From the IMG/VR virus record IMGVR_UViG_2737471854_000004, positions 1 to 49,583 of that record: a stretch of DNA of 49,583 nucleotides, one strand, 5' to 3'. The translations under genes were made by a program, and so were the position numbers. Source of the DNA: a virus (taxonomy: Duplodnaviria > Heunggongvirae > Uroviricota > Caudoviricetes). Of this stretch, positions 1-49,583 are shown in pieces (within the stretch, counting starts at the first letter, position 1; each line of letters starts with the position of its first letter). The notes beneath the pieces are model-generated. The model worked only from the letters and a program-made list of their open reading frames with translations, was not told the DNA's origin and did no database searches.

Positions 1-246
1 CTACGATAACCCACTCTTTTGTTGCCCCATTTTTGCCCCTTTTGCAGCGTTTTGCCCCATTTTTGCCACCGAAAAATGCGAGAATTTCTCAATCTGTAGC
101 CTGCAAATTGCGCCCATGAATTCTTTCCAAGAGAATCAGTTTCGGCTGGAAATCATTCAATACTCACACTAAAACAAAAAGCCCGCTTATGGTGGACTGC
201 AGGCTTTTAGATTCCGTGATTTAAAAACAATAGTTATAGAAACAAA

Positions 247-1455
247 TTACCAGCCTACAGCAATACCCCCTCCGATTACTGCTCCATCAGTATTATTCCA
301 TGAAGACGATGCACGAATATTGGTGTTTTCATTAAGTTTGTATTGAACACCAACAGCTACTGCATTACCGTTTCTATAGTTACCAACCCCAACGCCGGCA
401 CTAAATGTCTGGTTATTCACATACGGGATATTGGTCATTGCTGCTACGGAAGCAATACCTGCATTAGCTTTTTTAGCATTAGCTTCTATCTTATCATTCA
501 GCTGCTTAAATGTTGAATTTATCTTCCCATTAATTTGGTTAAATTTTGTATCAGTATATGCGAATGATTCTTGTTTTGCTGATTGTATGTTTTTATTAAT
601 AACACCGTTATTTTTCGTAACTTCCTGATCAGTGTATGCCAGTGATTCATTCTTGGCATTATTAATATTCTGATTTATCACAGCATTATTTTTGGTAACC
701 TGCTGATCTGTATATGCCAGTGATTCATTCTTGGCATTATTGATGTTTTGATTAATTACGGTATTATTTTTAGCTATCTCATTCCCAGTATAATCTTTCA
801 GTTGCTTAACGTTAACACCATCAGTATCCTCAGTACCTGCGGCAACATGGGTCAGTTGTCGATTAGTATTACCCGTCCCAAAAGATACACTATACTCTCT
901 GTCAGTTGTACTTCCCCCGCCGATGGCAACACTATTATTATGTTCAGCCACACTCTGTGAGCCTAGTGAGATGGCATTTTCTGCATTAGATGTAGCCCCT
1001 ACACCAATAGCTAATGTATCTCCTGCAGTCGCCTGGGCGGAGGAACCAAATGCAACACTGTTTTCCCCGGTTGCTTTAGACGCAGCACCTACACTTGTAG
1101 AATTAGCGACTGCCTCACTACCCGCACCATTTGCTATAGCTGAATCACCGTTTACTTTACTAAATGAACCAATGGCTACCGAGTTATTTCCAACAACATT
1201 TGCATTTGCGCCAATAGCTGACGATGAGTTACCTTGAGATGAAGAATATGAACCAATTGCAGTATTATAGGCTCCTTCGGTTTTTGAAACAGCGCCAATT
1301 GTTGTAGAAGAAGAACCTGAAGCATTTGCATATGCACCAATAGCTGTCGCATTACTATCAGTTGCCTGGCTATTATCACCGGCATTATAAGAATTATATG
1401 CATAAGAATTTGCTGAAACTGTAAATATAACAGAGGCTACAAATAGTTTTTTCAT
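247..1455 (-). CDS. Trimeric autotransporter adhesin, YadA/Eib-like (prophage moron)
   Basis: ORF 247..1497; likely start at MKKLFVASVIFTVSANSYA (signal peptide). Many NSxAxG head-type repeats, three tandem stalk repeats (NAVINQNINNAKNESLAYTDQQVTK), C-terminal membrane anchor ending GGIAVGW. Confidence 0.8.
   Translation of the reverse strand: MKKLFVASVIFTVSANSYAYNSYNAGDNSQATDSNATAIGAYANASGSSSTTIGAVSKTEGAYNTAIGSYSSSQGNSSSAIGANANVVGNNSVAIGSFSKVNGDSAIANGAGSEAVANSTSVGAASKATGENSVAFGSSAQATAGDTLAIGVGATSNAENAISLGSQSVAEHNNSVAIGGGSTTDREYSVSFGTGNTNRQLTHVAAGTEDTDGVNVKQLKDYTGNEIAKNNTVINQNINNAKNESLAYTDQQVTKNNAVINQNINNAKNESLAYTDQEVTKNNGVINKNIQSAKQESFAYTDTKFNQINGKINSTFKQLNDKIEANAKKANAGIASVAAMTNIPYVNNQTFSAGVGVGNYRNGNAVAVGVQYKLNENTNIRASSSWNNTDGAVIGGGIAVGW
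540..780. repeat. Tandem ~78-bp coding repeats inside the adhesin stalk
   Basis: Near-identical DNA units 'gtatatgccagtgattcattcttggcattatt...' repeated 2-3 times; correspond to the repeated peptide ESLAYTDQQVTKNNAVINQNINNAKN. Confidence 0.6.
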
Positions 1456-2250
1456 AGAAATGACGTATGTTAAATAGATTGAAAAGATAAGATTCAAATC
1501 AATTAAATGACGCTTTAAAAATAAGCGGCAGGATTTTATTCATCTGATAAAAATAGCGCAAGAGTTGTCTTATATGGAATATTCAGATAAGTCTTATTGA
1601 AAAAACGGTATAACAAATACATAACATTACGGCCATTATAAATACATTATAAAAATTACAGAGATATTTAATTAAATCCAAAGCATTTTTTCAATATGGA
1701 TTTCGAAGAACTTGTTATAGTACATTAATCAATCAATTATAGGTATTTCGCTCACTGTTCATATAGTTTTAATACATCAATGCATAAGAACATTTTCTCA
1801 TTCATAAAAGCGATAAAAACTGTTGTACCTTATATTGTTAATGTTTGGTAACAAAGACAAATCCAACAAGGCATTGATCATCCCCTATGATACCCATAGA
1901 AAGAATTATCTGAAATATAATAACGATATAAAGTATATTATTGCTAATGAAACTATATGATAGCTTCACATTCAGCAATACCTGCTCAACCTTATCTCTG
2001 GAAATGAACATTGCTAACTTTCCTACTCCTTAATCGTTCTCCCAGAGCGCATCATCCACACCGACAATCCCCTCAGGCATCAGCCAGGTGACATTTTCCG
2101 CTAATGGGCTGGTTCAGAGATAAATAGTGCGTCCCCGGAAGCCAAGTCAAAGAGCATTTTTCCCCTGTGACCTTCAACGGCTACTTACTGTTTAAAAACA
2201 GCTACGATGCCAGCATAGATACTCTTGAATACGATGTACTACGTTTTTTC

Positions 2251-2604: not shown

Positions 2605-3003
2605 GGCGATAAGTTCTGGCGTGACGGTGAACGCAGGGCTGTCCAGTGGCGTTTTGTTTTCGTCTCGTCCATGACGGTTTTGACAGCCTTTGGCGTGGCT
2701 GCCAGTACTTCGCTGTCGTTGTCTGTATCACTACAGAGTTGCGCCAGACCTTTTTTGTCGTGGAAGCATTGCTTCCCTTCAGATCATCAACTATCCATTG
2801 CGCCTCGTCCCTGTGCTGTTTCGCGCTCTGCTGCGCCTGCACCACAGTTTCCTGTCACCACGTCGGCAACTGTGCGCATCACACCTCTGAGGTGTTTACC
2901 CGGGATTTCAGAGTTATGTGGCATCCGTACATGGGGATGCCTGCGCCATCAATCAGCGCACCTGATATCACTACAGACATAGTTTTTCTCGCGATAAATT
3001 AAA

Positions 3004-3549
3004 TCAGGAAGAGGCTTCCAGAGAGACGGGCCATTCAATGGCGTTATATGAGGATTTATCAGTGATGGTGCTGAAATCCATCGCCTGCAGCGATTTCGCG
3101 TAAATGCGGTACGCTTTCAGCTTCTCCCTGTCGTCGTCACTGATTAATCCCAGCAGCAGGTCTTTTTCCCATTCGCTGGTCATGATGCTGACCCGTTGTA
3201 ACAGGGCATCGCGCTCATCTTCCGCTTTAAGTTTGTAGTCGAAGACAAATTTATCGTCGCGGTAAAACCAGTAACCAGGCACGGTAATACGGCGGTTAGC
3301 GGTAATATCAGGAACTTCAATAACACTGGCGTTACGGGGTTCAATGCCTGTCACATCCTTACCGACCCATACCACGCGCCCGTCTCCGGTGTAAACCATT
3401 TTTATGGTGTCACTGGCAAAATTTTTCAGCTCTTCATACCAGTTTTGGTCATCTTCCGAAAAAAGCCAGGTGATACCATGTTGTTTTGTCATCTGATATT
3501 GTTCTGCGGTTTTCGGATTGCCTGCAGTAATATTTTTTAAATGCAACAT
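3004..3549 (-). CDS. Tail fibre assembly protein (Tfa/gpU-like)
   Basis: 181 aa immediately downstream of the tail fibre gene; C-terminal ...KLKAYRIYAKSLQAMD...IEWP motif typical of tail fibre chaperones. Confidence 0.7.
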   Translation of the reverse strand: MLHLKNITAGNPKTAEQYQMTKQHGITWLFSEDDQNWYEELKNFASDTIKMVYTGDGRVVWVGKDVTGIEPRNASVIEVPDITANRRITVPGYWFYRDDKFVFDYKLKAEDERDALLQRVSIMTSEWEKDLLLGLISDDDREKLKAYRIYAKSLQAMDFSTITDKSSYNAIEWPVSLEASS

Positions 3550-3551
3550 TG

Positions 3552-5105
3552 TTAAACACTCGCCACGTTATACCAGGTGCCGTTAATCAGTTTCTGAAGC
3601 GGTCGGTAATACACGCCGTTGACGTTATCCGCTGAATTTTTACCAGTATCCGATATCGATATCCCTGACAATCCGTGTCCCGCAGGAGCGTGATATGTCC
3701 AAGAGATTACATTGCTGCCAGGTTTGTAATACATTTCGGAACCATAGCGCACATCCTGCACGCCGCCATTTCGCTGCTGATAACGGGCATCGAAATTTCC
3801 ATAGTTTGATGGGGTCATCTGTCCGTTTACAGCGAATGTGATACTGCCATCGGTATTTCTCTGGCTGTAAAAATGCCAGCCGGAATCATCACCAAGCTCT
3901 GCAACTACAGGTCGGGATGAATTACCCCATAAATTAAACGTTGCGTTTTTCGTGGAGTTGTTGGCGCTGGATAACGTGAATTTTTTAGCATTTCCGGCCT
4001 GAATATTTTTTAACGCTATCGCCACACCATTCTGGAAACGAAATACATGCTGTCCATTCGCATAAACATCCAGAATGCCGTCGCCGTTTTGTTTTATACC
4101 TGTATCGTTATCCCCGAAAGCAATTGAGTTTCCGCCCAGCGCGTTCTGAACGCCGATACCCAGTGCACCATTGACCTGAGAACCACCGCCAACAGACACT
4201 TTATGCGACATGGATATCTCTCCTGTCCGCAAATTAATGGTGAGCGGACGCAGGGGACCAATATCTCCATTCTCGCCCTGACCTTCACTAGTAGGGATAA
4301 GGTGCAGGCACTCTTCAGAACGGCGAAAAATAAGGCCAAAAGCCTCGTTAAAAATCCTCAATGCATTAACACCACGTATTTTCAGCTCCCCGGTCATCAA
4401 ATCACCAGATTTTTTTACATATCGCAGATCAAAATCTGAATAGATATTGCCGGGGTTTATCACACTGAAATAGCTTTTCTCGCTATCAAGAAGGCAAATC
4501 AAAGGAATACCCTTAATGATATCATTCGCTACCAGCTCGGACTTGTTCCCCTTATAAAGTGGGAACGTACCAAGAACCTTTCCGCCTAGTGTTAGTTGAA
4601 GTGTCGCCGCGTTGGTATTGTTCTGAACGGGGAAAACTATAATCGGGGTTCGTAGCGTCCAATCTGTACCTCCATTAACAAAAAACGTCGAGGGAAGTTC
4701 CAGCGTCAGTGCGTTTGCAGTGCCACCAGTAACACCCGCAATATAATGACCGCTCTGAAGCTGCGCTATCTGTACGAAATAGTTTTCCGAACCACGCGTG
4801 GCAAAGTTAGCCACAACATCATTAAGGGACCAACCTTTCGCGGTTGTTCCTTCCTGCCCACGAATGACTTTCAACACATCACCGCTTACCGATACCAAGT
4901 GACAAATCTCAAATGCAGACTCTTTATTATCGGTAAGCGTAATTTTTGCATAGACGCGTTGCCCGTTCGATTTATTTTCAAAATCGGCAGAAAGCAATTT
5001 TGCAAATTTAGCCCCTGTACCGGGCATTACCGGAATATCAGTCTGAATCGTGGTGATATCACCAGCCAGTGCTGAAACAACGTTATTGCCGAACCCAAGA
5101 ATCAT
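3552..5105 (-). CDS. Tail fibre protein
   Basis: 517 aa, Gly/Asn/Thr-rich, follows baseplate genes and precedes tfa with a 3-nt gap. Confidence 0.7.
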   Translation of the reverse strand: MILGFGNNVVSALAGDITTIQTDIPVMPGTGAKFAKLLSADFENKSNGQRVYAKITLTDNKESAFEICHLVSVSGDVLKVIRGQEGTTAKGWSLNDVVANFATRGSENYFVQIAQLQSGHYIAGVTGGTANALTLELPSTFFVNGGTDWTLRTPIIVFPVQNNTNAATLQLTLGGKVLGTFPLYKGNKSELVANDIIKGIPLICLLDSEKSYFSVINPGNIYSDFDLRYVKKSGDLMTGELKIRGVNALRIFNEAFGLIFRRSEECLHLIPTSEGQGENGDIGPLRPLTINLRTGEISMSHKVSVGGGSQVNGALGIGVQNALGGNSIAFGDNDTGIKQNGDGILDVYANGQHVFRFQNGVAIALKNIQAGNAKKFTLSSANNSTKNATFNLWGNSSRPVVAELGDDSGWHFYSQRNTDGSITFAVNGQMTPSNYGNFDARYQQRNGGVQDVRYGSEMYYKPGSNVISWTYHAPAGHGLSGISISDTGKNSADNVNGVYYRPLQKLINGTWYNVASV

Positions 5106-5728
5106 TTTTGAATCACCGTTGTTGCATAAGAATAAATAAAAGGGAGTTTTACATATTTCTGGTCAATGGCATCTTTCAGAAAATAGCCTATACCATCACC
5201 ATATTCTGGTATATGAATAGAAAAAACACTGTCCGACACAGTCACGCTCACATCAAAAGTGTGCTGCAACGGCGGGTCTATTCCATTTTTTCCATGAATG
5301 AACCGCGCCACACGGCGCTTTAACCAGTCAATGCAGAAATGCGAACCGTCAGCCTTATAAAAATTCCACGTTAATATTCGTTTGAAATAATCATCAGGAA
5401 CATACGATGCCTGCCCCGGAACGTAATTCCGCATTGCTGCATACGGGATCGTATTGTATTCAATGGTATCGTATGCGCCGCGTGCAATAGCCTCCTCGGA
5501 AACCTGTAGTAAAGGCCTTTCAACGCCATAAATCCCGAGTGCAATCCAGTCCAGCAATTGCCCGGTTATTGATTCCGATGTCCAGCATGGCAATGCCAGA
5601 TTGTTGAGTGAATCGAGGTATTCCTGAGCAATTTCATTGTATGCATCAAAGAACGCAACAACATTCGGATCATCTCTGTACTGCACAAATGGATAAGCAG
5701 GGAGAATTTTCTCAGTCAGATATTGCAT
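5102..5728 (-). CDS. Baseplate/tail protein (Mu gp48 / DUF2313-like)
   Basis: Position between baseplate J and tail fibre; start moved to the internal Met (MQYLTEK) to give a short overlap with the upstream gene. Confidence 0.45.
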   Translation of the reverse strand: MQYLTEKILPAYPFVQYRDDPNVVAFFDAYNEIAQEYLDSLNNLALPCWTSESITGQLLDWIALGIYGVERPLLQVSEEAIARGAYDTIEYNTIPYAAMRNYVPGQASYVPDDYFKRILTWNFYKADGSHFCIDWLKRRVARFIHGKNGIDPPLQHTFDVSVTVSDSVFSIHIPEYGDGIGYFLKDAIDQKYVKLPFIYSYATTVIQK

Positions 5729-6938
5729 ACTTGTTGACCTGAACCTGTGATGCCACCGTTGAAAAATAGGAATAGGTATCGCCATAAACCAGGCTTGTAT
5801 CTTTCGCCGGAAGAACAATGTGGCCGTTAATACCAATGCTCACACTGATTGTTGAGATCAACGTCGAATCAACCAGCAACCTGACAGAACTGGTAAAAAT
5901 ATCCTGGATACGCAGAAGATTTATCGGGTGTCCGACTTCAATTGAATTGATGTAATCAGCAACGTTTTGCTGCACAGCCATAGCAATACCCGCCGGATCA
6001 ACATAATCATCAGACACCGTGTTCCAGGTGATTAGCACCATGACGTTTTGTGATGACGGGATAACGAACGGCACCTGATAAACGTCCGGCGAAACGGTTA
6101 TTGAAACCGTGCGTTTTTCCACTGCCGCACCGGATGGATTGCTTACATCGTTGGTCAGTTTCGAAATATCCGGTACAGATTTGTAAATCGCATAAGCCAC
6201 ATCATACGGATCACCGCCACCAACAACCGCAACCCATTTCCCCAGCGACGACTGCCGGAAAGAAATCAGGTTTTCTCGCACACCGCTTACTGATTTGAGC
6301 ATCGCTTTAAAGCAATCCGGAGTTCCCTGCACACCAAACATGCCGGACTCCATGACTTCGGCGCGGTAAGATGCCCACGTCTGCGCCTCCTGACCTGGCA
6401 TCCCTGCGGTAAGGTTCGTGCATTTTACAGGCTGGTCTTTTGGTACTGAGGTAATAACCTGCGTCACAGTCCCTTCCGGCACAGCCCATGAGCCTGACGT
6501 TGTGGCCACACAGTAGACTGGTTCAGACTGCCCACTTTCCGGCACCACCGTATCGCGGGAAACTGCATACTGGTAGTTGCCATCACCGACAACAAATCCT
6601 TTAGGGATACCAAACCCCGGCAACGCCTCAAATACCACGTATACCGCAGTATTTGTACTTAATCCCTTCTGTGCTCCATAAATGTTTCCGAGTTGCATCA
6701 GTAACGGAATATTCGCACCGTATGGGCTTACGGAGTTAATAAGGTCCACCCGCGCCTGGTCTATTAATGCCAGCGCCCCGATAGCCGTGCTGGCAAGGTC
6801 TGTAATAAGTCCCGCCGGAAGGTTGGCTGTATATCTAGGTACTTTTTCAGCAACTCTGATGATAAGATTTGCAAGCAAATCATTGGGTGGCGTAGGCTGC
6901 GCCCCCGCACTGGTCATAGTAATTGGTATTTCTGACAT
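5712..6938 (-). CDS. Baseplate J-like protein
   Basis: 408 aa; size and position typical of baseplate J / Mu gp47 family upstream of the tail fibre. Confidence 0.55.
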   Translation of the reverse strand: MSEIPITMTSAGAQPTPPNDLLANLIIRVAEKVPRYTANLPAGLITDLASTAIGALALIDQARVDLINSVSPYGANIPLLMQLGNIYGAQKGLSTNTAVYVVFEALPGFGIPKGFVVGDGNYQYAVSRDTVVPESGQSEPVYCVATTSGSWAVPEGTVTQVITSVPKDQPVKCTNLTAGMPGQEAQTWASYRAEVMESGMFGVQGTPDCFKAMLKSVSGVRENLISFRQSSLGKWVAVVGGGDPYDVAYAIYKSVPDISKLTNDVSNPSGAAVEKRTVSITVSPDVYQVPFVIPSSQNVMVLITWNTVSDDYVDPAGIAMAVQQNVADYINSIEVGHPINLLRIQDIFTSSVRLLVDSTLISTISVSIGINGHIVLPAKDTSLVYGDTYSYFSTVASQVQVNKYAISD

Positions 6939-23640: not shown

Positions 23641-24969
23641 TTACAACTCCGCGTAATTACCGTGCGCGATGATCAATCCATAGGTGTAACAATCGAAAAG
23701 GTCATCAGCACGTTTATGCGCGTCTTTATCCGCCAGGTGGAATCCGGCGATTTGTTTTATGAGGTGGTTTGCGGTGGTGCGCTTGAATGAAACGGTCTTG
23801 TCGTAAGCCTCCCGGACGATTTTGCACATCCCCTGATAGTGGTAGCTGGATGCCATCACCGCCCGTTCGTCTTTGCCCTTGCTGGTTAGTGCCGATTTAA
23901 TCGGCGTCATATCCCAGCCTTCGGTTTCCGCCTTCTGGTTGAGGATTGCCCCCATCGCGGCGTCTTCCATAAAAATTCCCTGGCTGCCCAGACGCGGACG
24001 GCATAATTTCGCGAGGCGCTCAAGGTTGTCATAAACGCCGGGGATATATTCAGGAAGCAATGACGCTTTAATTTGCGTAACATCCCAGTCAATAATCGTC
24101 AGTTTTGGCTCTTCCGAATACGTTGACTCATAAGCGAAATACAACACGCCAGTACCATCATTTTCGGTCCCGCCTTTCAGCGCCGTATCCATCACTGCGA
24201 AAATCATGTCGCAGTACGGCGGCATCTCAATCGGCTGACCGTCCACCAGCAGCTTATCGACATCGAGTAACGCGTCTTTGGACCAGTCCACGAACTCGGC
24301 AAGATATTCCTGCTGCCAGACGCGCGGATCGGATTTCTTCTCCGTTTCCTCCAGTTCTTCTTTCGGAATATACGGATTCGATGAAGTTGGCGCATGGTGC
24401 ATGACAAATCCCAGGGATTCATCGTGGCATATCGCGTAGAAAAAATTGCTCTCGTCGATACCGTTTGGTGTGGAAAATACCCACGCACAGCCGCGGTAAT
24501 CGACAAGCGTCGGGCGTATAGCTCGGGGCCAGATTTCCTCGAGCATTTCCGGCGATTTAGTGAATGCTGCCTCATCAATCAGCACAGCGTGATATTTACG
24601 CCCACGCCCGGCCAGTTTGTTATTGTCCGTTACCCAAAAGTCGATGCGCCCCCCATTACGGAGAATAATGCGCTTTTCATTTTTTGACTGGCTGAGGATC
24701 AGCGGTTGCAGAACGGCGCTAATTTCATCCCAGATTTCCTGGTACTGGCGGTATTGTGCGGTAAAAATCCCCACCCTACCCGCGATAAGTTGCCCGGTGG
24801 TAGGAACGGCAAATTTCCGCGTAGCGAAACTGGTAGCGATGTTTACCAGCATCACCGTTTTACCCCAGCGACGACCACAGCATACCGCGTGGAAGCGTTC
24901 CTCTATTGCCGCCGTCCATGCAGCTATTTGCCCCTCATGAGGTTTTGGGAGGTAGATTTCAATCGACAT
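23641..24969 (-). CDS. Terminase large subunit
   Basis: 442 aa; Walker A-like CCGRRWGKT and Walker B-like VLIDEAAF; C-terminal nuclease-like region with acidic residues. Confidence 0.8.
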   Translation of the reverse strand: MSIEIYLPKPHEGQIAAWTAAIEERFHAVCCGRRWGKTVMLVNIATSFATRKFAVPTTGQLIAGRVGIFTAQYRQYQEIWDEISAVLQPLILSQSKNEKRIILRNGGRIDFWVTDNNKLAGRGRKYHAVLIDEAAFTKSPEMLEEIWPRAIRPTLVDYRGCAWVFSTPNGIDESNFFYAICHDESLGFVMHHAPTSSNPYIPKEELEETEKKSDPRVWQQEYLAEFVDWSKDALLDVDKLLVDGQPIEMPPYCDMIFAVMDTALKGGTENDGTGVLYFAYESTYSEEPKLTIIDWDVTQIKASLLPEYIPGVYDNLERLAKLCRPRLGSQGIFMEDAAMGAILNQKAETEGWDMTPIKSALTSKGKDERAVMASSYHYQGMCKIVREAYDKTVSFKRTTANHLIKQIAGFHLADKDAHKRADDLFDCYTYGLIIAHGNYAEL

Positions 24970-48130: not shown

Positions 48131-48346
48131 ATGGCACAAGTAATCTTTAATGAAGAGTGGATGGTTGAATACGGCCTGATGCTTCGCACTGGTCTGGGGG
48201 CCAGACAAATTGAAGCATACCGCCAGAACTGTTGGGTGGAGGGCTTCCACTTCAAACGAGTATCTCCTTTAGGTAAGCCAGACAGCAAACGAGGGATTAT
48301 CTGGTACAACTATCCAAAGATAAATCAGTTTATCAAAGACTCATGA
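48131..48346 (+). CDS. xisR: Excisionase XisR (YdaQ)
   Basis: 71 aa from [31 protein letters not shown]...; immediately upstream of the integrase. Confidence 0.75.
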
Positions 48347-48347
48347 T

Positions 48348-49583
48348 ATGTCTAAATTACCAACAGGTGTCGAGATTAGAGGTAGATACATTCGCATCTG
48401 GTTCATGTTTCGAGGAAAACGATGTCGGGAAACATTAAAAGGCTGGGAGATTACAAACAGTAATATTAAAAAGGCCGGAAATTTAAGAGCACTGATAGTT
48501 CATGAAATAAACTCCGGTGAATTTGAGTATTTAAGACGTTTTCCCCAGTCCAGCACTGGGGCAAAAATGGTGACAACGAGAGTCATAAAAACGTTCGGGG
48601 AGCTTTGTGATATCTGGACAAAAATTAAAGAGACAGAGTTAACAACAAACACAATGAAGAAAACGAAATCACAATTAAAAACACTCAGAATAATAATTTG
48701 TGAAAGTACCCCGATATCACATATACGTTATAGCGATATCTTAAACTACCGGAATGAACTGCTGCATGGAGAAACGCTTTACCTGGATAATCCAAGATCC
48801 AACAAAAAAGGAAGAACCGTGCGCACAGTTGATAACTATATCGCCCTGCTCTGTTCGCTGTTACGTTTTGCGTATCAGTCGGGATTTATATCAACCAAAC
48901 CATTTGAAGGAGTAAAAAAATTACAGCGAAACAGAATAAAGCCTGATCCGTTATCTAAAACAGAATTCAATGCATTAATGGAAAGTGAAAAAGGACAGAG
49001 CCAGAACTTGTGGAAATTTGCCGTTTACTCAGGACTTCGTCACGGGGAACTGGCAGCTCTGGCGTGGGAGGATGTGGATCTCGAAAAGGGAATAGTGAAT
49101 GTCAGAAGAAACCTGACGATACTTGATATGTTCGGTCCCCCAAAAACAAATGCCGGGATCCGGACAGTAACACTACTGCAGCCTGCTCTTGAAGCACTGA
49201 AGGAGCAATACAAACTGACCGGGCATCATCGCAAAAGCGAAATCACCTTTTATCATCGGGAGTACGGCAGAACCGAAAAGCAAAAACTGCATTTTGTTTT
49301 CATGCCCAGGGTGTGTAACGGAAAACAAAAACCTTATTACTCGGTAAGCAGTTTGGGGGCAAGGTGGAATGCAGCAGTAAAACGTGCTGGTATTCGCCGC
49401 CGTAATCCGTACCATACGCGGCATACTTTTGCCTGCTGGCTGTTGACGGCAGGAGCGAACCCGGCATTTATAGCCAGCCAAATGGGGCATGAAACTGCGC
49501 AGATGGTGTATGAAATTTACGGTATGTGGATTGATGACATGAACGACGAACAGATAGCCATGTTGAATGCGCGGTTATCATAG
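48348..49583 (+). CDS. intR: Prophage integrase IntR (tyrosine recombinase)
   Basis: 411 aa, MSKLPTGVEIRGRYIRIWFMFRGKRCRETLKGW...; C-terminal R...H..R...Y catalytic region; stop is the last codon of the window. Confidence 0.85.
   Translation: MSKLPTGVEIRGRYIRIWFMFRGKRCRETLKGWEITNSNIKKAGNLRALIVHEINSGEFEYLRRFPQSSTGAKMVTTRVIKTFGELCDIWTKIKETELTTNTMKKTKSQLKTLRIIICESTPISHIRYSDILNYRNELLHGETLYLDNPRSNKKGRTVRTVDNYIALLCSLLRFAYQSGFISTKPFEGVKKLQRNRIKPDPLSKTEFNALMESEKGQSQNLWKFAVYSGLRHGELAALAWEDVDLEKGIVNVRRNLTILDMFGPPKTNAGIRTVTLLQPALEALKEQYKLTGHHRKSEITFYHREYGRTEKQKLHFVFMPRVCNGKQKPYYSVSSLGARWNAAVKRAGIRRRNPYHTRHTFACWLLTAGANPAFIASQMGHETAQMVYEIYGMWIDDMNDEQIAMLNARLS

What the first reader, a model, noticed from the sequence alone, without database searches (positions are those of the whole stretch)
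20..70. 16-bp direct repeat near the left prophage edge
Seen in sequence: TTGCCCCATTTTTGCC occurs at about 22-37 and 52-67, 30 bp apart, within a run of TTTTGC motifs downstream of the adhesin gene. Inference: possible binding sites or part of the attachment/junction region; the prophage boundary itself is not resolved.
Basis: seen in the sequence. Interest (0 to 1): 0.25.

Follow-up and report, generated by a model that had tools for sequence, protein, structure and literature searches.

The report
Integrase arm-binding sites of Rac attP
The repeat is real and is most likely the set of four docking sites for the prophage's own integrase in the outer arm of its attachment site, which is an ordinary lambda-like arrangement that has apparently not been mapped for Rac-type prophages.

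Summary
Observation confirmed. TTGCCCCATTTTTGCC occurs exactly at 22-37 and 52-67. Each 16-mer is a pair of TGCCCC boxes 11 bp apart, giving four boxes at 23, 34, 53 and 64 (the last is TGCCAC). A fifth "TTTTGC" at 40 is not conserved.

The window is a Rac-type prophage inserted in ttcA. Its edges were set by a prophage caller. The true host/phage junction (core ATACAACCTGAACAA) lies 85-99 bp left of base 1, so the boxes sit 105-154 bp inside phage DNA. They are absent from the empty site found in 2489 of 5426 E. coli genomes.

A matching pair, TTTGCCCCCAATTTGCCCC, lies 11-27 bp beyond the intR stop codon in the near-identical EC11 prophage and in K-12 Rac. In phage PHB10 and several IMG/VR contigs, int, the pair, the core and the four-box array are contiguous.

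The same layout recurs with integrases 31-69% identical that target other genes. The motif changes to GTTCCCA in the most distant case.

IntR carries an N-terminal arm-DNA-binding domain. Published EMSA fragments, mapped here, show that XisR does not bind a fragment holding the whole array.

Best reading: IntR arm-type sites of the P arm (confidence 0.85). This is a new member of a known kind and of low interest.

The parts
1..19 (+). Distal end of the P-arm spacer between the IHF-like site and the box array. It is phage DNA; the att core lies at window coordinates -99 to -85, outside the window.
   Evidence: Window base 1 equals L001 4001, and the core is L001 3901-3915. This stretch is largely conserved among 14 distinct Rac-type P arms.
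20..30 (+). Arm-type box a (TGTTGCCCCAT; core TGCCCC at 23-28)
   Evidence: TTGCCCC is invariant in 14 distinct Rac-type P arms. It aligns with a TGCCCT/TGCCCC box in PHB10.
31..39 (+). Arm-type box b (TTTTGCCCC; core 34-39), 11 bp after box a
   Evidence: Invariant in 14 distinct P arms. The same 11-bp pair spacing is seen in PHB10, the 933W type, the Yersinia phage and BR319a.
40..49 (+). Spacer that happens to read TTTTGCAGCG; not a conserved box
   Evidence: It varies among Rac-type arms (TTTTACAGCA, TTATACAGCG, TTTTGCAACG, TTTTGCGACT) and is unrelated in the 933W type and PHB10.
50..60 (+). Arm-type box c (TTTTGCCCCAT; core 53-58), 30 bp after box a
   Evidence: TTTGCCCCA is invariant in 14 distinct P arms. 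A second pair 30-31 bp after the first also occurs in the 933W type, PHB10, L110 and L137.
61..69 (+). Arm-type box d, degenerate (TTTTGCCAC; core TGCCAC at 64-69), 11 bp after box c. It is the outer limit of the conserved attP.
   Evidence: TTTTTGCC is kept in 13 of 14 arms, and one arm (L104) has the full TGCCCC. Homology with K-12 Rac and with the sitABCD-linked arms ends at about 75 and 68 respectively, just after this box.
70..171 (+). Phage DNA outside the conserved attP, shared only with a subset of Rac-like prophages
   Evidence: Matches Rac-SA53, CP026085, E. coli W and APEC O1 at 94-97% only up to 171. K-12 and the sit-type arms differ here.
172..246 (-). 3' flank of the adhesin cassette, with a terminator-like hairpin followed by a T-run on the minus strand (about 172-212)
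   Evidence: Inverted repeat I1, 167-186 / 199-218. Homology to adhesin-less Rac-like prophages breaks at 171/172.
247..1497 (-). YadA-like trimeric autotransporter adhesin gene, cargo just inside the attachment site
   Evidence: Pfam YadA_head, YadA_stalk and YadA_anchor. Annotated as a YadA-like family protein in EC11.
48131..48346 (+). xisR excisionase gene
   Evidence: Pfam DUF1233 putative excisionase, E 6e-21. Annotated xisR in EC11 and K-12.
48348..49583 (+). intR tyrosine integrase gene, the proposed reader of the boxes. The window ends on its stop codon; the P' pair of boxes lies 11-27 bp beyond the window.
   Evidence: Pfam Arm-DNA-bind_2 (residues 5-69, E 3.9e-26) plus Phage_integrase. 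P' pair in L003, L007 and L016-L064.

Best explanation
Window 20-69 is the array of arm-type binding sites for the prophage's own integrase IntR. It lies in the distal (P) arm of a lambda-like attachment site.

The phage-form attP reads: intR stop, two TGCCCC boxes 11 bp apart (P' arm), a phage-borne copy of the first codons of ttcA, the crossover core ATACAACCTGAACAA, about 105 bp of spacer with an IHF-like site, then two pairs of TGCCCC boxes (11 bp within a pair, 30 bp between pairs). All boxes are on the same strand. In the prophage the P arm is separated from int and ends up here, at the uspF-side junction (Liu's attR).

Proposed mechanism (inferred): the N-terminal arm-binding domains of IntR protomers dock on these boxes. 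Their catalytic domains hold the core sites. IHF-type bends fold the arms back, so that a bridged intasome forms for integration and, with XisR, for excision.

Shown here: the anatomy, its position relative to the core, its contiguity in phage-form DNA, and its conservation and co-variation with the integrase. Taken from the literature: the failure of XisR to bind a fragment containing the array. Inferred: physical binding of IntR to the boxes, and their requirement for recombination.
For: (a) Location. The boxes are phage DNA 105-154 bp from the core and are absent from the empty attB.

(b) Both arms. The same motif occurs as a pair 11-27 bp past the intR stop in EC11, K-12 and every related locus reaching that far.

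(c) Contiguity. In phage PHB10 (Int 69% identical, also with a ttcA-mimic core) and in IMG/VR contigs L157, L167, L106, L098, L166 and L099, the order is int, P' pair, core, 4-box array. The array starts 212 bp after the int stop.

(d) Same architecture with diverged integrases and other targets:
- 933W-type Stx phage (Int 43.5%): GTGCCCCA x2, then 211 bp, then TGCCCCAA x4 at spacings 11/20/11.
- Yersinia phage (Int 42.5%): a pair in each arm about 200 bp apart.
- Pseudomonas phiCTX-like BR319a (Int 31-33%): the motif changes to GTTCCCA, again in 11-bp pairs on both sides of a tRNA-like core.
- Further TGCCCC-type attPs: L137, L110, L111, L141.

(e) Footprint. Among 14 distinct Rac-type P arms, boxes a, b and c are invariant and box d nearly so. 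The spacers vary, and homology between prophage types ends right after box d.

(f) The reader protein. IntR has a Pfam Arm-DNA-bind_2 domain, E 3.9e-26.

(g) Statistics. The cluster is the only one of its kind in the window, with 0.003 expected.

(h) Accessory sites. An IHF-like site lies about 50 bp from the core in the P arm (perfect consensus in PHB10; TTTCAATGTGTTA in Rac). A published IHF peak lies at Rac attL near the ttcA start.
Against: No direct binding or mutational data for IntR exist in anything I could search. The assignment rests on architecture, conservation and analogy.

xis co-varies with int across the compared lineages, so co-variation alone does not separate Int sites from Xis sites. 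That separation rests on one published EMSA, done with K-12 DNA whose array differs from the window's at two spacer positions.

Box d is degenerate (TGCCAC). The Yersinia phage has only one clear pair in its P arm, so the number of functional sites is uncertain.

The window itself does not contain the core or the P' arm. These were read from the near-identical EC11 prophage and from K-12.

A single-sequence structure model of the IntR N-terminus was too poor to compare with the lambda Int arm-binding domain.
Confidence: 0.85

Rival explanations
1. The repeats are binding sites for the excisionase XisR (or jointly for XisR and Int). XisR would form a head-to-tail filament that bends the P arm during excision, as lambda Xis does at X1-X1.5-X2.
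For: XisR binds a 294-bp fragment spanning Rac attR (Liu et al. 2015, PMC4632033). Mapped onto K-12, that fragment contains the array. Tandem direct repeats about one helical turn apart, in the arm distal to int, are typical of excisionase sites (own knowledge of lambda). xis and int are adjacent and co-vary, so the comparative data do not exclude it.
Against: The negative-control fragment AttM of the same paper starts immediately after the core and contains the entire array (K-12 coordinates 1043-1333 against array 1150-1196 in my mapping; the fragment lengths of 291 and 294 bp reproduce the paper's). XisR did not bind it. The motif also occurs as a pair next to int in the P' arm, where lambda-type Xis sites are not expected. 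The array is the outermost element of attP rather than lying between the core and the arm sites.
Confidence: 0.07
2. The element is intrinsically curved DNA, or a site for a host nucleoid protein (IHF, Fis, H-NS). T4-5 tracts phased every 10-11 bp would bend the arm, and the GC-rich parts would be incidental.
For: T-runs start at about 31, 40, 50 and 60, close to the helical repeat. Lambda-type intasomes need bent arms. H-NS is reported to affect Rac excision (PMC4632033).
Against: The T tracts are not what is conserved across lineages. The conserved part is the GC-rich hexamer TGCCCC. The 933W type has A-tracts after the box instead of T-tracts before it, L141 has GC-rich flanks, and BR319a has GTTCCCA. 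Within Rac-type arms the T-rich spacers vary while the boxes are invariant. No IHF consensus lies in the array. Curvature may still assist as a secondary property.
Confidence: 0.04
3. The repeats are a non-functional local duplication or slippage product in AT-rich intergenic DNA, or a fragment of some other element such as an RNA gene, a terminator, a promoter or iterons.
For: The sequence is of low complexity, sits in an untranslated gap, and no annotation covers it in any record.
Against: The boxes are conserved in position and number across integrases 31-100% identical and across different integration targets. There is no Rfam match at E below 0.5 and none over the array. No promoter-like or terminator-like site falls in the array. 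It is not next to a replication gene. It is single-copy per genome.
Confidence: 0.03

Closest known systems
Bacteriophage lambda attP arm-type sites (P1, P2 in the P arm; P'1-P'3 in the P' arm), bound by the N-terminal domain of lambda Int
   Same: In both, short repeated sites distinct from the core lie in both arms. The P' sites form a tandem run about one helical turn apart next to int. The P-arm sites are the outermost element, about 105-155 bp from the core here. My recollection for lambda (not checked) is that attP spans roughly -160 to +80. Both have IHF-type sites between arms and core. Both integrases have a separate arm-binding domain (the lambda layout is from established knowledge, e.g. 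Ross and Landy 1982 as cited in PMC2951348).
   Different: The recognition sequence differs: TGCCCC(A) here, against what I recall as C/AAGTCACTAT in lambda (from memory, not checked). The arm-binding domain belongs to a different Pfam family (PF12167; I recall lambda's as PF09003, which I did not check). There are four P-arm sites arranged as two pairs and two P' sites, against 2 + 3 in lambda. All boxes here are on one strand, whereas by my recollection lambda P2 is inverted. The core lies inside a protein-coding gene (ttcA), and the phage supplies a replacement N-terminus.
Rac prophage of E. coli K-12 (IntR/XisR, attL/attR in ttcA/ttcC; Liu et al. 2015, PMC4632033)
   Same: It has the same integrase family, the same core, the same P' pair and essentially the same four-box array. 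The window is a full-length relative of the defective K-12 Rac.
   Different: K-12 differs at two spacer positions in the array and diverges completely from window position ~75 onwards (ynaM/ynaE instead of the adhesin). The paper defines the core and shows XisR binding to an attR fragment, but it does not mention arm-type sites (0 occurrences).
933W / VT2-Sakai-type Stx phage attP (integrase 43.5% identical, reported target wrbA)
   Same: It has the same 2 + 2 + 2 layout, the same box core TGCCCCA, the same 11-bp and 30-31-bp spacings, and a similar distance between the arms (211 bp against about 199 bp).
   Different: The core and the spacer sequence differ. The P' pair overlaps the 3' end of int. 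Flanks are A-rich after the box rather than T-rich before it.
KplE1 (CPS-53) IntS/TorI recombination module (Panis et al., PMC2951348)
   Same: It is another E. coli K-12 cryptic prophage in which arm-type Int sites and RDF sites were mapped at attL/attR, so it shows what the experimental proof looks like.
   Different: The integrase is different. The arm motif is different (conserved TAAA). The RDF sites are interleaved with the int promoter at attL.

Membership tests
Arm-type integrase-binding sites of a lambda-like attP (heterobivalent tyrosine integrase) | The cognate integrase carries a separate N-terminal arm-DNA-binding domain in addition to the catalytic domain | tested here: met
   IntR (window 48348-49580) matches Pfam Arm-DNA-bind_2 PF12167 at residues 5-69 (E 3.9e-26) and Phage_integrase PF00589 (E 6.6e-23). 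A structure model of the N-terminus was too poor to add anything.
Arm-type integrase-binding sites of a lambda-like attP (heterobivalent tyrosine integrase) | The repeated motif is distinct from the core and present in both arms of the attachment site | tested here: met
   P arm: TGCCCC at window 23, 34 and 53, plus TGCCAC at 64. P' arm: TGCCCC x2 at 11-27 bp past the int stop in EC11, K-12 and IMG/VR loci. The core ATACAACCTGAACAA is unrelated.
Arm-type integrase-binding sites of a lambda-like attP (heterobivalent tyrosine integrase) | The sites are element DNA within about 50-160 bp of the crossover core and absent from the empty attB | tested here: met
   The empty site is present in 2489 of 5426 genomes at up to 99.8% over 430 bp. 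The array lies 105-154 bp from the core, and the P' pair about 65-76 bp from it.
Arm-type integrase-binding sites of a lambda-like attP (heterobivalent tyrosine integrase) | Both arms and the core are contiguous in the excised or phage form (attP) | tested here: met
   Seen in PHB10 (L010 2737-3000) and in IMG/VR L157 and L167 with full-length IntR. The array starts 212 bp after the int stop.
Arm-type integrase-binding sites of a lambda-like attP (heterobivalent tyrosine integrase) | The sites are kept, or co-vary with the integrase, while the surrounding sequence diverges | tested here: met
   The boxes are invariant in 14 distinct Rac-type arms. The same layout occurs with Int at 69%, 43.5% and 42.5% identity. 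The motif switches to GTTCCCA at 31-33% identity.
Arm-type integrase-binding sites of a lambda-like attP (heterobivalent tyrosine integrase) | DNA-bending sites (IHF) lie between the arm sites and the core | tested here: inconclusive
   PHB10 has a perfect WATCAANNNNTTR. Rac and the 933W type have a one-mismatch TTTCAATNTGTTA at the equivalent place. A published IHF peak lies at K-12 Rac attL, but none was seen at attR (PMC8407004).
Arm-type integrase-binding sites of a lambda-like attP (heterobivalent tyrosine integrase) | The integrase N-domain physically binds the sites, and recombination requires them | not testable with these tools
   No published footprint, EMSA or mutagenesis of IntR arm sites was found.
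Excisionase (recombination directionality factor) binding sites | Bound by the cognate excisionase | tested here: not met
   The primers of Liu et al. 2015 mapped onto K-12 show that the unbound control fragment AttM (291 bp) contains the whole array. Only the fragment that also includes the core and host side (AttR, 294 bp) was bound by XisR. This is literature data reinterpreted here, not a new experiment.
Known structured RNA / intrinsic terminator / sigma-70 promoter | Match to an Rfam family or to consensus promoter or terminator features over the repeats | tested here: not met
   No Rfam hit over the array; the best hits nearby have E 0.5-0.9, well below gathering scores. No promoter-like or terminator-like site falls within the array.

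The most novel reading that the evidence does not exclude
TGCCCC(A) in 11-bp pairs, with two pairs in the distal arm and one pair beside int, may be the family-wide arm-site code of integrases carrying the PF12167 arm-binding domain. It would be shared by Rac-type, 933W-type Stx and Yersinia phages, and by further elements that integrate at quite different targets (ttcA, the 933W target, tRNA genes). If so, attP sites and exact prophage ends of this large family could be predicted from sequence alone. Arm-level cross-talk between co-resident prophages would also become testable, for example Rac IntR occupying or assisting the arms of an Stx prophage in the same cell.
Probability: 0.45. Interest if true: 0.4.

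Novelty: new member of a known kind. Interest (0 to 1): 0.2.

Why it matters
The prophage boundary is the ttcA core 85-99 bp beyond the window's left end, and the repeats mark the outer limit of the functional attachment site.

It gives a concrete, testable map of the Rac-type attP: two boxes, core, IHF-like site, four boxes. For a prophage whose excision is studied in K-12, I found no arm-site mapping in the searchable literature.

In practice the TGCCCC pair signature can be used to place prophage ends correctly. The caller that produced this window cut one end at the int stop codon and the other inside attP. The signature also helps recognise piled-up, decayed elements at the ttcA hot spot.

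None of this changes how lambda-type site-specific recombination is understood.

Tried and rejected
- Phage-database DNA hits to the left end (Rac-SA53, Salmonella phage SPF_0923, vB_EcoS-683R6) were prophage records that include host flanks (uspF, ompN, ttcA, dbpA). They gave attR/attL context but not a phage-form attP.
- Citrobacter phage phiNP (Int 29-33%) has another gene directly after int, so its attP is elsewhere. I dropped it.
- The 3-mismatch copy of the 16-mer inside intR (48560-48575, minus strand) and the two TTTGCCCC at 24927 and 25224 are at chance level: 5 found against 2.5 expected.
- Rfam and promoter/terminator scans over the region found nothing over the array.
- Full-text searches for TTTGCCCC or TGCCCCA with integrase or attP returned only unrelated primer and phiC31 papers. 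Searches for arm-type sites of Rac, ttcA or 933W found no mapping.
- A single-sequence AlphaFold model of IntR residues 1-91 had pLDDT 56.5. I did not run a fold search because the matches would be meaningless.
- A sequence search of PDB matched only the catalytic domain (Tn1549-type Int 6emy, E 2.5e-7), nothing for the arm-binding domain.
- About half of the 75 IMG/VR hits to the three-box pattern are simple GC-rich tandem repeats unrelated to att sites. I set them aside.
- The inverted GGGCAAAAA directly after the core looked like a possible extra site, but it is not kept in PHB10.

Full report
**1. The observation**

Window 1-70 reads ctacgataacccactcttttgTTGCCCCATTTTTGCCccttttgcagcgtTTGCCCCATTTTTGCCacc. 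The 16-mer TTGCCCCATTTTTGCC is exact at 22-37 and 52-67, 30 bp start to start, and occurs nowhere else in the window.

The repeat finder resolves it into 9-mers TTTTGCCCC-like at 20, 31, 50 and 61, with spacings of 11, 19 and 11 bp. A further TTTTGCAGC starts at 40. So each 16-mer is a pair of boxes.

The hexamer TGCCCC occurs 32 times on both strands of the window. Three same-strand copies within 50 bp are expected about 0.003 times per window. That was reached in 2 of 500 local-composition shuffles. The pair at 23/34 is the only pair at 10-12 bp spacing, against 0.018 expected.

**2. Where it sits**

The window is a Rac-type prophage.
- Left end: a YadA-like adhesin gene at 247-1497 on the minus strand.
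- Right end: xisR (48131-48346) and intR (48348-49583).
- IntR has Pfam Arm-DNA-bind_2 (residues 5-69, E 3.9e-26) and Phage_integrase domains.

The window stops on the last base of the intR stop codon.

The left 246 bp are 100% identical in 11 complete E. coli genomes. In strain EC11 the neighbourhood is nifJ, ompN, uspF, then 310 bp, then window base 1.

Those 310 bp hold a remnant of the first codons of ttcA. It ends in ATACAACCTGAACAA (L001 3901-3915), which is window coordinates -99 to -85. At the other end of the EC11 prophage the intR stop is followed 52 bp later by the ttcA start codon, and the same 15-mer lies at L003 1332-1346.

A reconstructed prophage-free junction (uspF side + core + ttcA) matches at up to 99.8% over 430 bp. 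It covers at least 80% of the query in 2489 of 5426 E. coli genomes.

So the host/phage junction is that core. The repeats are phage DNA 105-154 bp inside it, and the window's own edges were set by a prophage caller. Dozens of IMG/VR prophage contigs end at the same int stop codon, and three begin at the same base as this window.

**3. The same motif at the other end**

Directly after the intR stop, EC11, K-12 MG1655 Rac and every related IMG/VR locus that extends that far read ttgcaaagtTTGCCCCcaatTTGCCCCatttag. That is two TGCCCC boxes 11 bp apart on the same strand as the array.

Relatives with integrases 65-71% identical, all in ttcA, keep the two boxes while the bases between and around them change (L071, L076 and L092; L090 has one degenerate box).

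**4. Phage-form attP**

In phage PHB10 (Int 69% identical) the elements are contiguous:
- int stop;
- TTTTGCCCCTATTATGCCCCTAT;
- a ttcA-like start and the core CAATACAACCTGAAT;
- an exact IHF consensus AATCAATTAGTTA;
- TGCCCT/TGCCCC boxes at 2945, 2956, 2975 and 2987.

A pattern scan of IMG/VR for three boxes in the observed spacing found 75 loci, 21 of them Rac-type. In L157 and L167 a full-length IntR (99.5-100% identical) ends 212 bp before the array. The intervening sequence equals my reconstruction from the two prophage ends. L098, L099, L106, L165 and L166 show the same junction after a truncated int, which points to piled-up, decayed elements at this site.

**5. Conservation and co-variation**

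Among 14 distinct Rac-type P arms:
- boxes a, b and c (TTGCCCC) are invariant;
- box d (TTTTTGCC followed by AC, AT or CC) is nearly so, and one arm has a perfect TGCCCC there;
- the TTTTGC at window 40 varies freely and is spacer.

Homology between different Rac-like prophages ends just after box d. K-12 diverges after about 75. Arms followed by sitABCD diverge after 68. Rac-SA53 and others diverge at 171, where the adhesin cassette begins.

More distant integrases show the same layout:
- **933W-type Stx phage** (Int 43.5%): CCGTGCCCCAGACGTGCCCCAAAGT at the int end, then 211 bp, then TTTTGCCCCAAATATGCCCCAAACA and, 31 bp on, TTTTGCCCCAATAGTGCCCCAAACA.
- **Yersinia phage vB_YenM_06.16-1** (Int 42.5%): TGTCCCacccaTGCCCCA at the int end and TTTTGCCCCATTCTTGCCCCATTT about 200 bp further on.
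- **Pseudomonas phiCTX-like BR319a** (Int 31-33%): the box becomes GTTCCCA, again in 11-bp pairs on both sides of a tRNA-like core.

Further TGCCCC-type attPs with other cores are L137, L110/L164, L111/L119 and L141. The distance from the P' pair to the first P box is 173-211 bp in all five lineages.

**6. Separating Int sites from Xis sites**

Liu et al. 2015 (PMC4632033) showed that XisR shifts a 294-bp AttR fragment but not a 291-bp AttM fragment. Their primers come from the paper's supplement. Mapped on MG1655, they reproduce both lengths exactly.
- AttR spans host DNA, the core and the array.
- AttM starts at the first base after the core and contains the entire array.

So the array is not sufficient for XisR binding. 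That paper and the others found do not describe arm-type sites for IntR.

Separately, a genome-wide IHF study reports an IHF peak at Rac attL near the ttcA start, between the P' pair and the core. It saw no peak at attR (PMC8407004). In the P arm a one-mismatch IHF-like site, TTTCAATGTGTTA, lies about 50 bp from the core in Rac, and a near-identical one lies in the 933W type.

**7. Interpretation**

The best-supported reading is that window 20-69 holds the four arm-type IntR sites of the P arm of a lambda-like attP. The array now sits at the uspF-side junction (Liu's attR).

The inferred mechanism is that IntR N-domains dock on the boxes while the catalytic domains act at the core. IHF-type bends fold the arms back. 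XisR acts nearer the core during excision.

The anatomy, contiguity, conservation and co-variation were shown here. The XisR result is from the literature. IntR binding and its functional requirement are inferred.

Rival readings are much less likely:
- XisR sites: contradicted by the AttM result and by the motif's presence in the P' arm.
- Curved DNA or a host nucleoid-protein site: the conserved part is the GC-rich box, not the T tracts.
- Meaningless duplication, RNA, terminator or promoter: contradicted by the conservation, and the Rfam and consensus scans found nothing over the array.

**8. Comparison with what is known, and verdict**

This is the lambda paradigm: a heterobivalent integrase, arm sites in both arms, and IHF between arms and core. 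It differs in the arm-domain family (PF12167), in the recognition motif, and in having a 2 + 4 arrangement with all sites on one strand.

It is a new member of a known kind. The arm sites of Rac appear unmapped in the searchable literature, but their existence and role are what a specialist would expect. Interest is low.

The most novel reading still open is that TGCCCC pairs are a family-wide arm code shared by Rac-type and 933W-type Stx phages. That would allow sequence-only prediction of attP and raise the possibility of arm-level cross-talk between co-resident prophages.

Noticed in passing
window 1 and 49583; IMG/VR loci L013-L069, L114, L122, L142: The window's edges are caller-made. The right end is the last base of the intR stop codon, as in dozens of IMG/VR prophage contigs. 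Three IMG/VR contigs start at the same base as the window. Both true att junctions lie outside the window: the core is 85-99 bp to the left and about 87-101 bp to the right.
   Followed up: yes
window 172-1497: The YadA-like adhesin gene and its minus-strand terminator form a cassette inserted just inside attP. Homology to adhesin-less Rac-like prophages (Rac-SA53, CP026085, E. coli W, APEC O1) stops at 171. Only 13 of 5426 E. coli genomes share the full 1-246.
   Followed up: partly
L004 (ON032529.1) 2900-6068; E. coli hits ending at query position 68: In the record named Salmonella phage SPF_0923 and in many E. coli genomes, the same P arm is followed directly by the sitABCD manganese/iron transporter operon. 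The uspF-side attR remnant therefore carries sitABCD as its immediate neighbour. That phage record also includes host genes (nifJ, ompN, uspF).
   Followed up: partly
L098, L099, L106, L165, L166 (IMG/VR): A C-terminal fragment of intR is followed by a complete P'-core-P junction and then by unrelated cargo. These look like tandem or decayed elements stacked at the ttcA integration hot spot.
   Followed up: partly
L002 (NZ_CP026085.1, labelled DH5alpha) versus L006 (MG1655): The record labelled DH5alpha has a Rac-like prophage end with intact tail-fibre genes next to attR and a 4.83-Mb chromosome. K-12 MG1655 differs here (ynaM/ynaE/pinR). The strain label or the assembly may not be a K-12 derivative at this locus.
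   Followed up: no
L001 3920-3928 (window coordinates about -80 to -72): An inverted copy of the box-like sequence (GGGCAAAAA) lies directly after the core in all Rac-type P arms. PHB10 instead has TTTTGCCAA in the forward orientation there. Its significance is unknown.
   Followed up: partly
L003 1297-1346; L010 2770-2836; L001 3868-3915: The phage carries its own copy of the ttcA start and first ~16 codons upstream of the core. Integration therefore swaps the N-terminus of TtcA (MQENQK... for MSQNQE...), as described for K-12 by Liu et al. 2015. PHB10 (Int 69% identical) carries a similar mimic.
   Followed up: partly
L110/L164, L111/L119, L141, L137 (IMG/VR): Further attP-like regions from other, partly GC-rich hosts have TGCCCC pairs in two clusters 160-220 bp apart. 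One has a tRNA-like core. In L141 there are five TGCCCCGC boxes. In some of them the nearest integrase is only about 23-25% identical or lies in a different orientation.
   Followed up: partly
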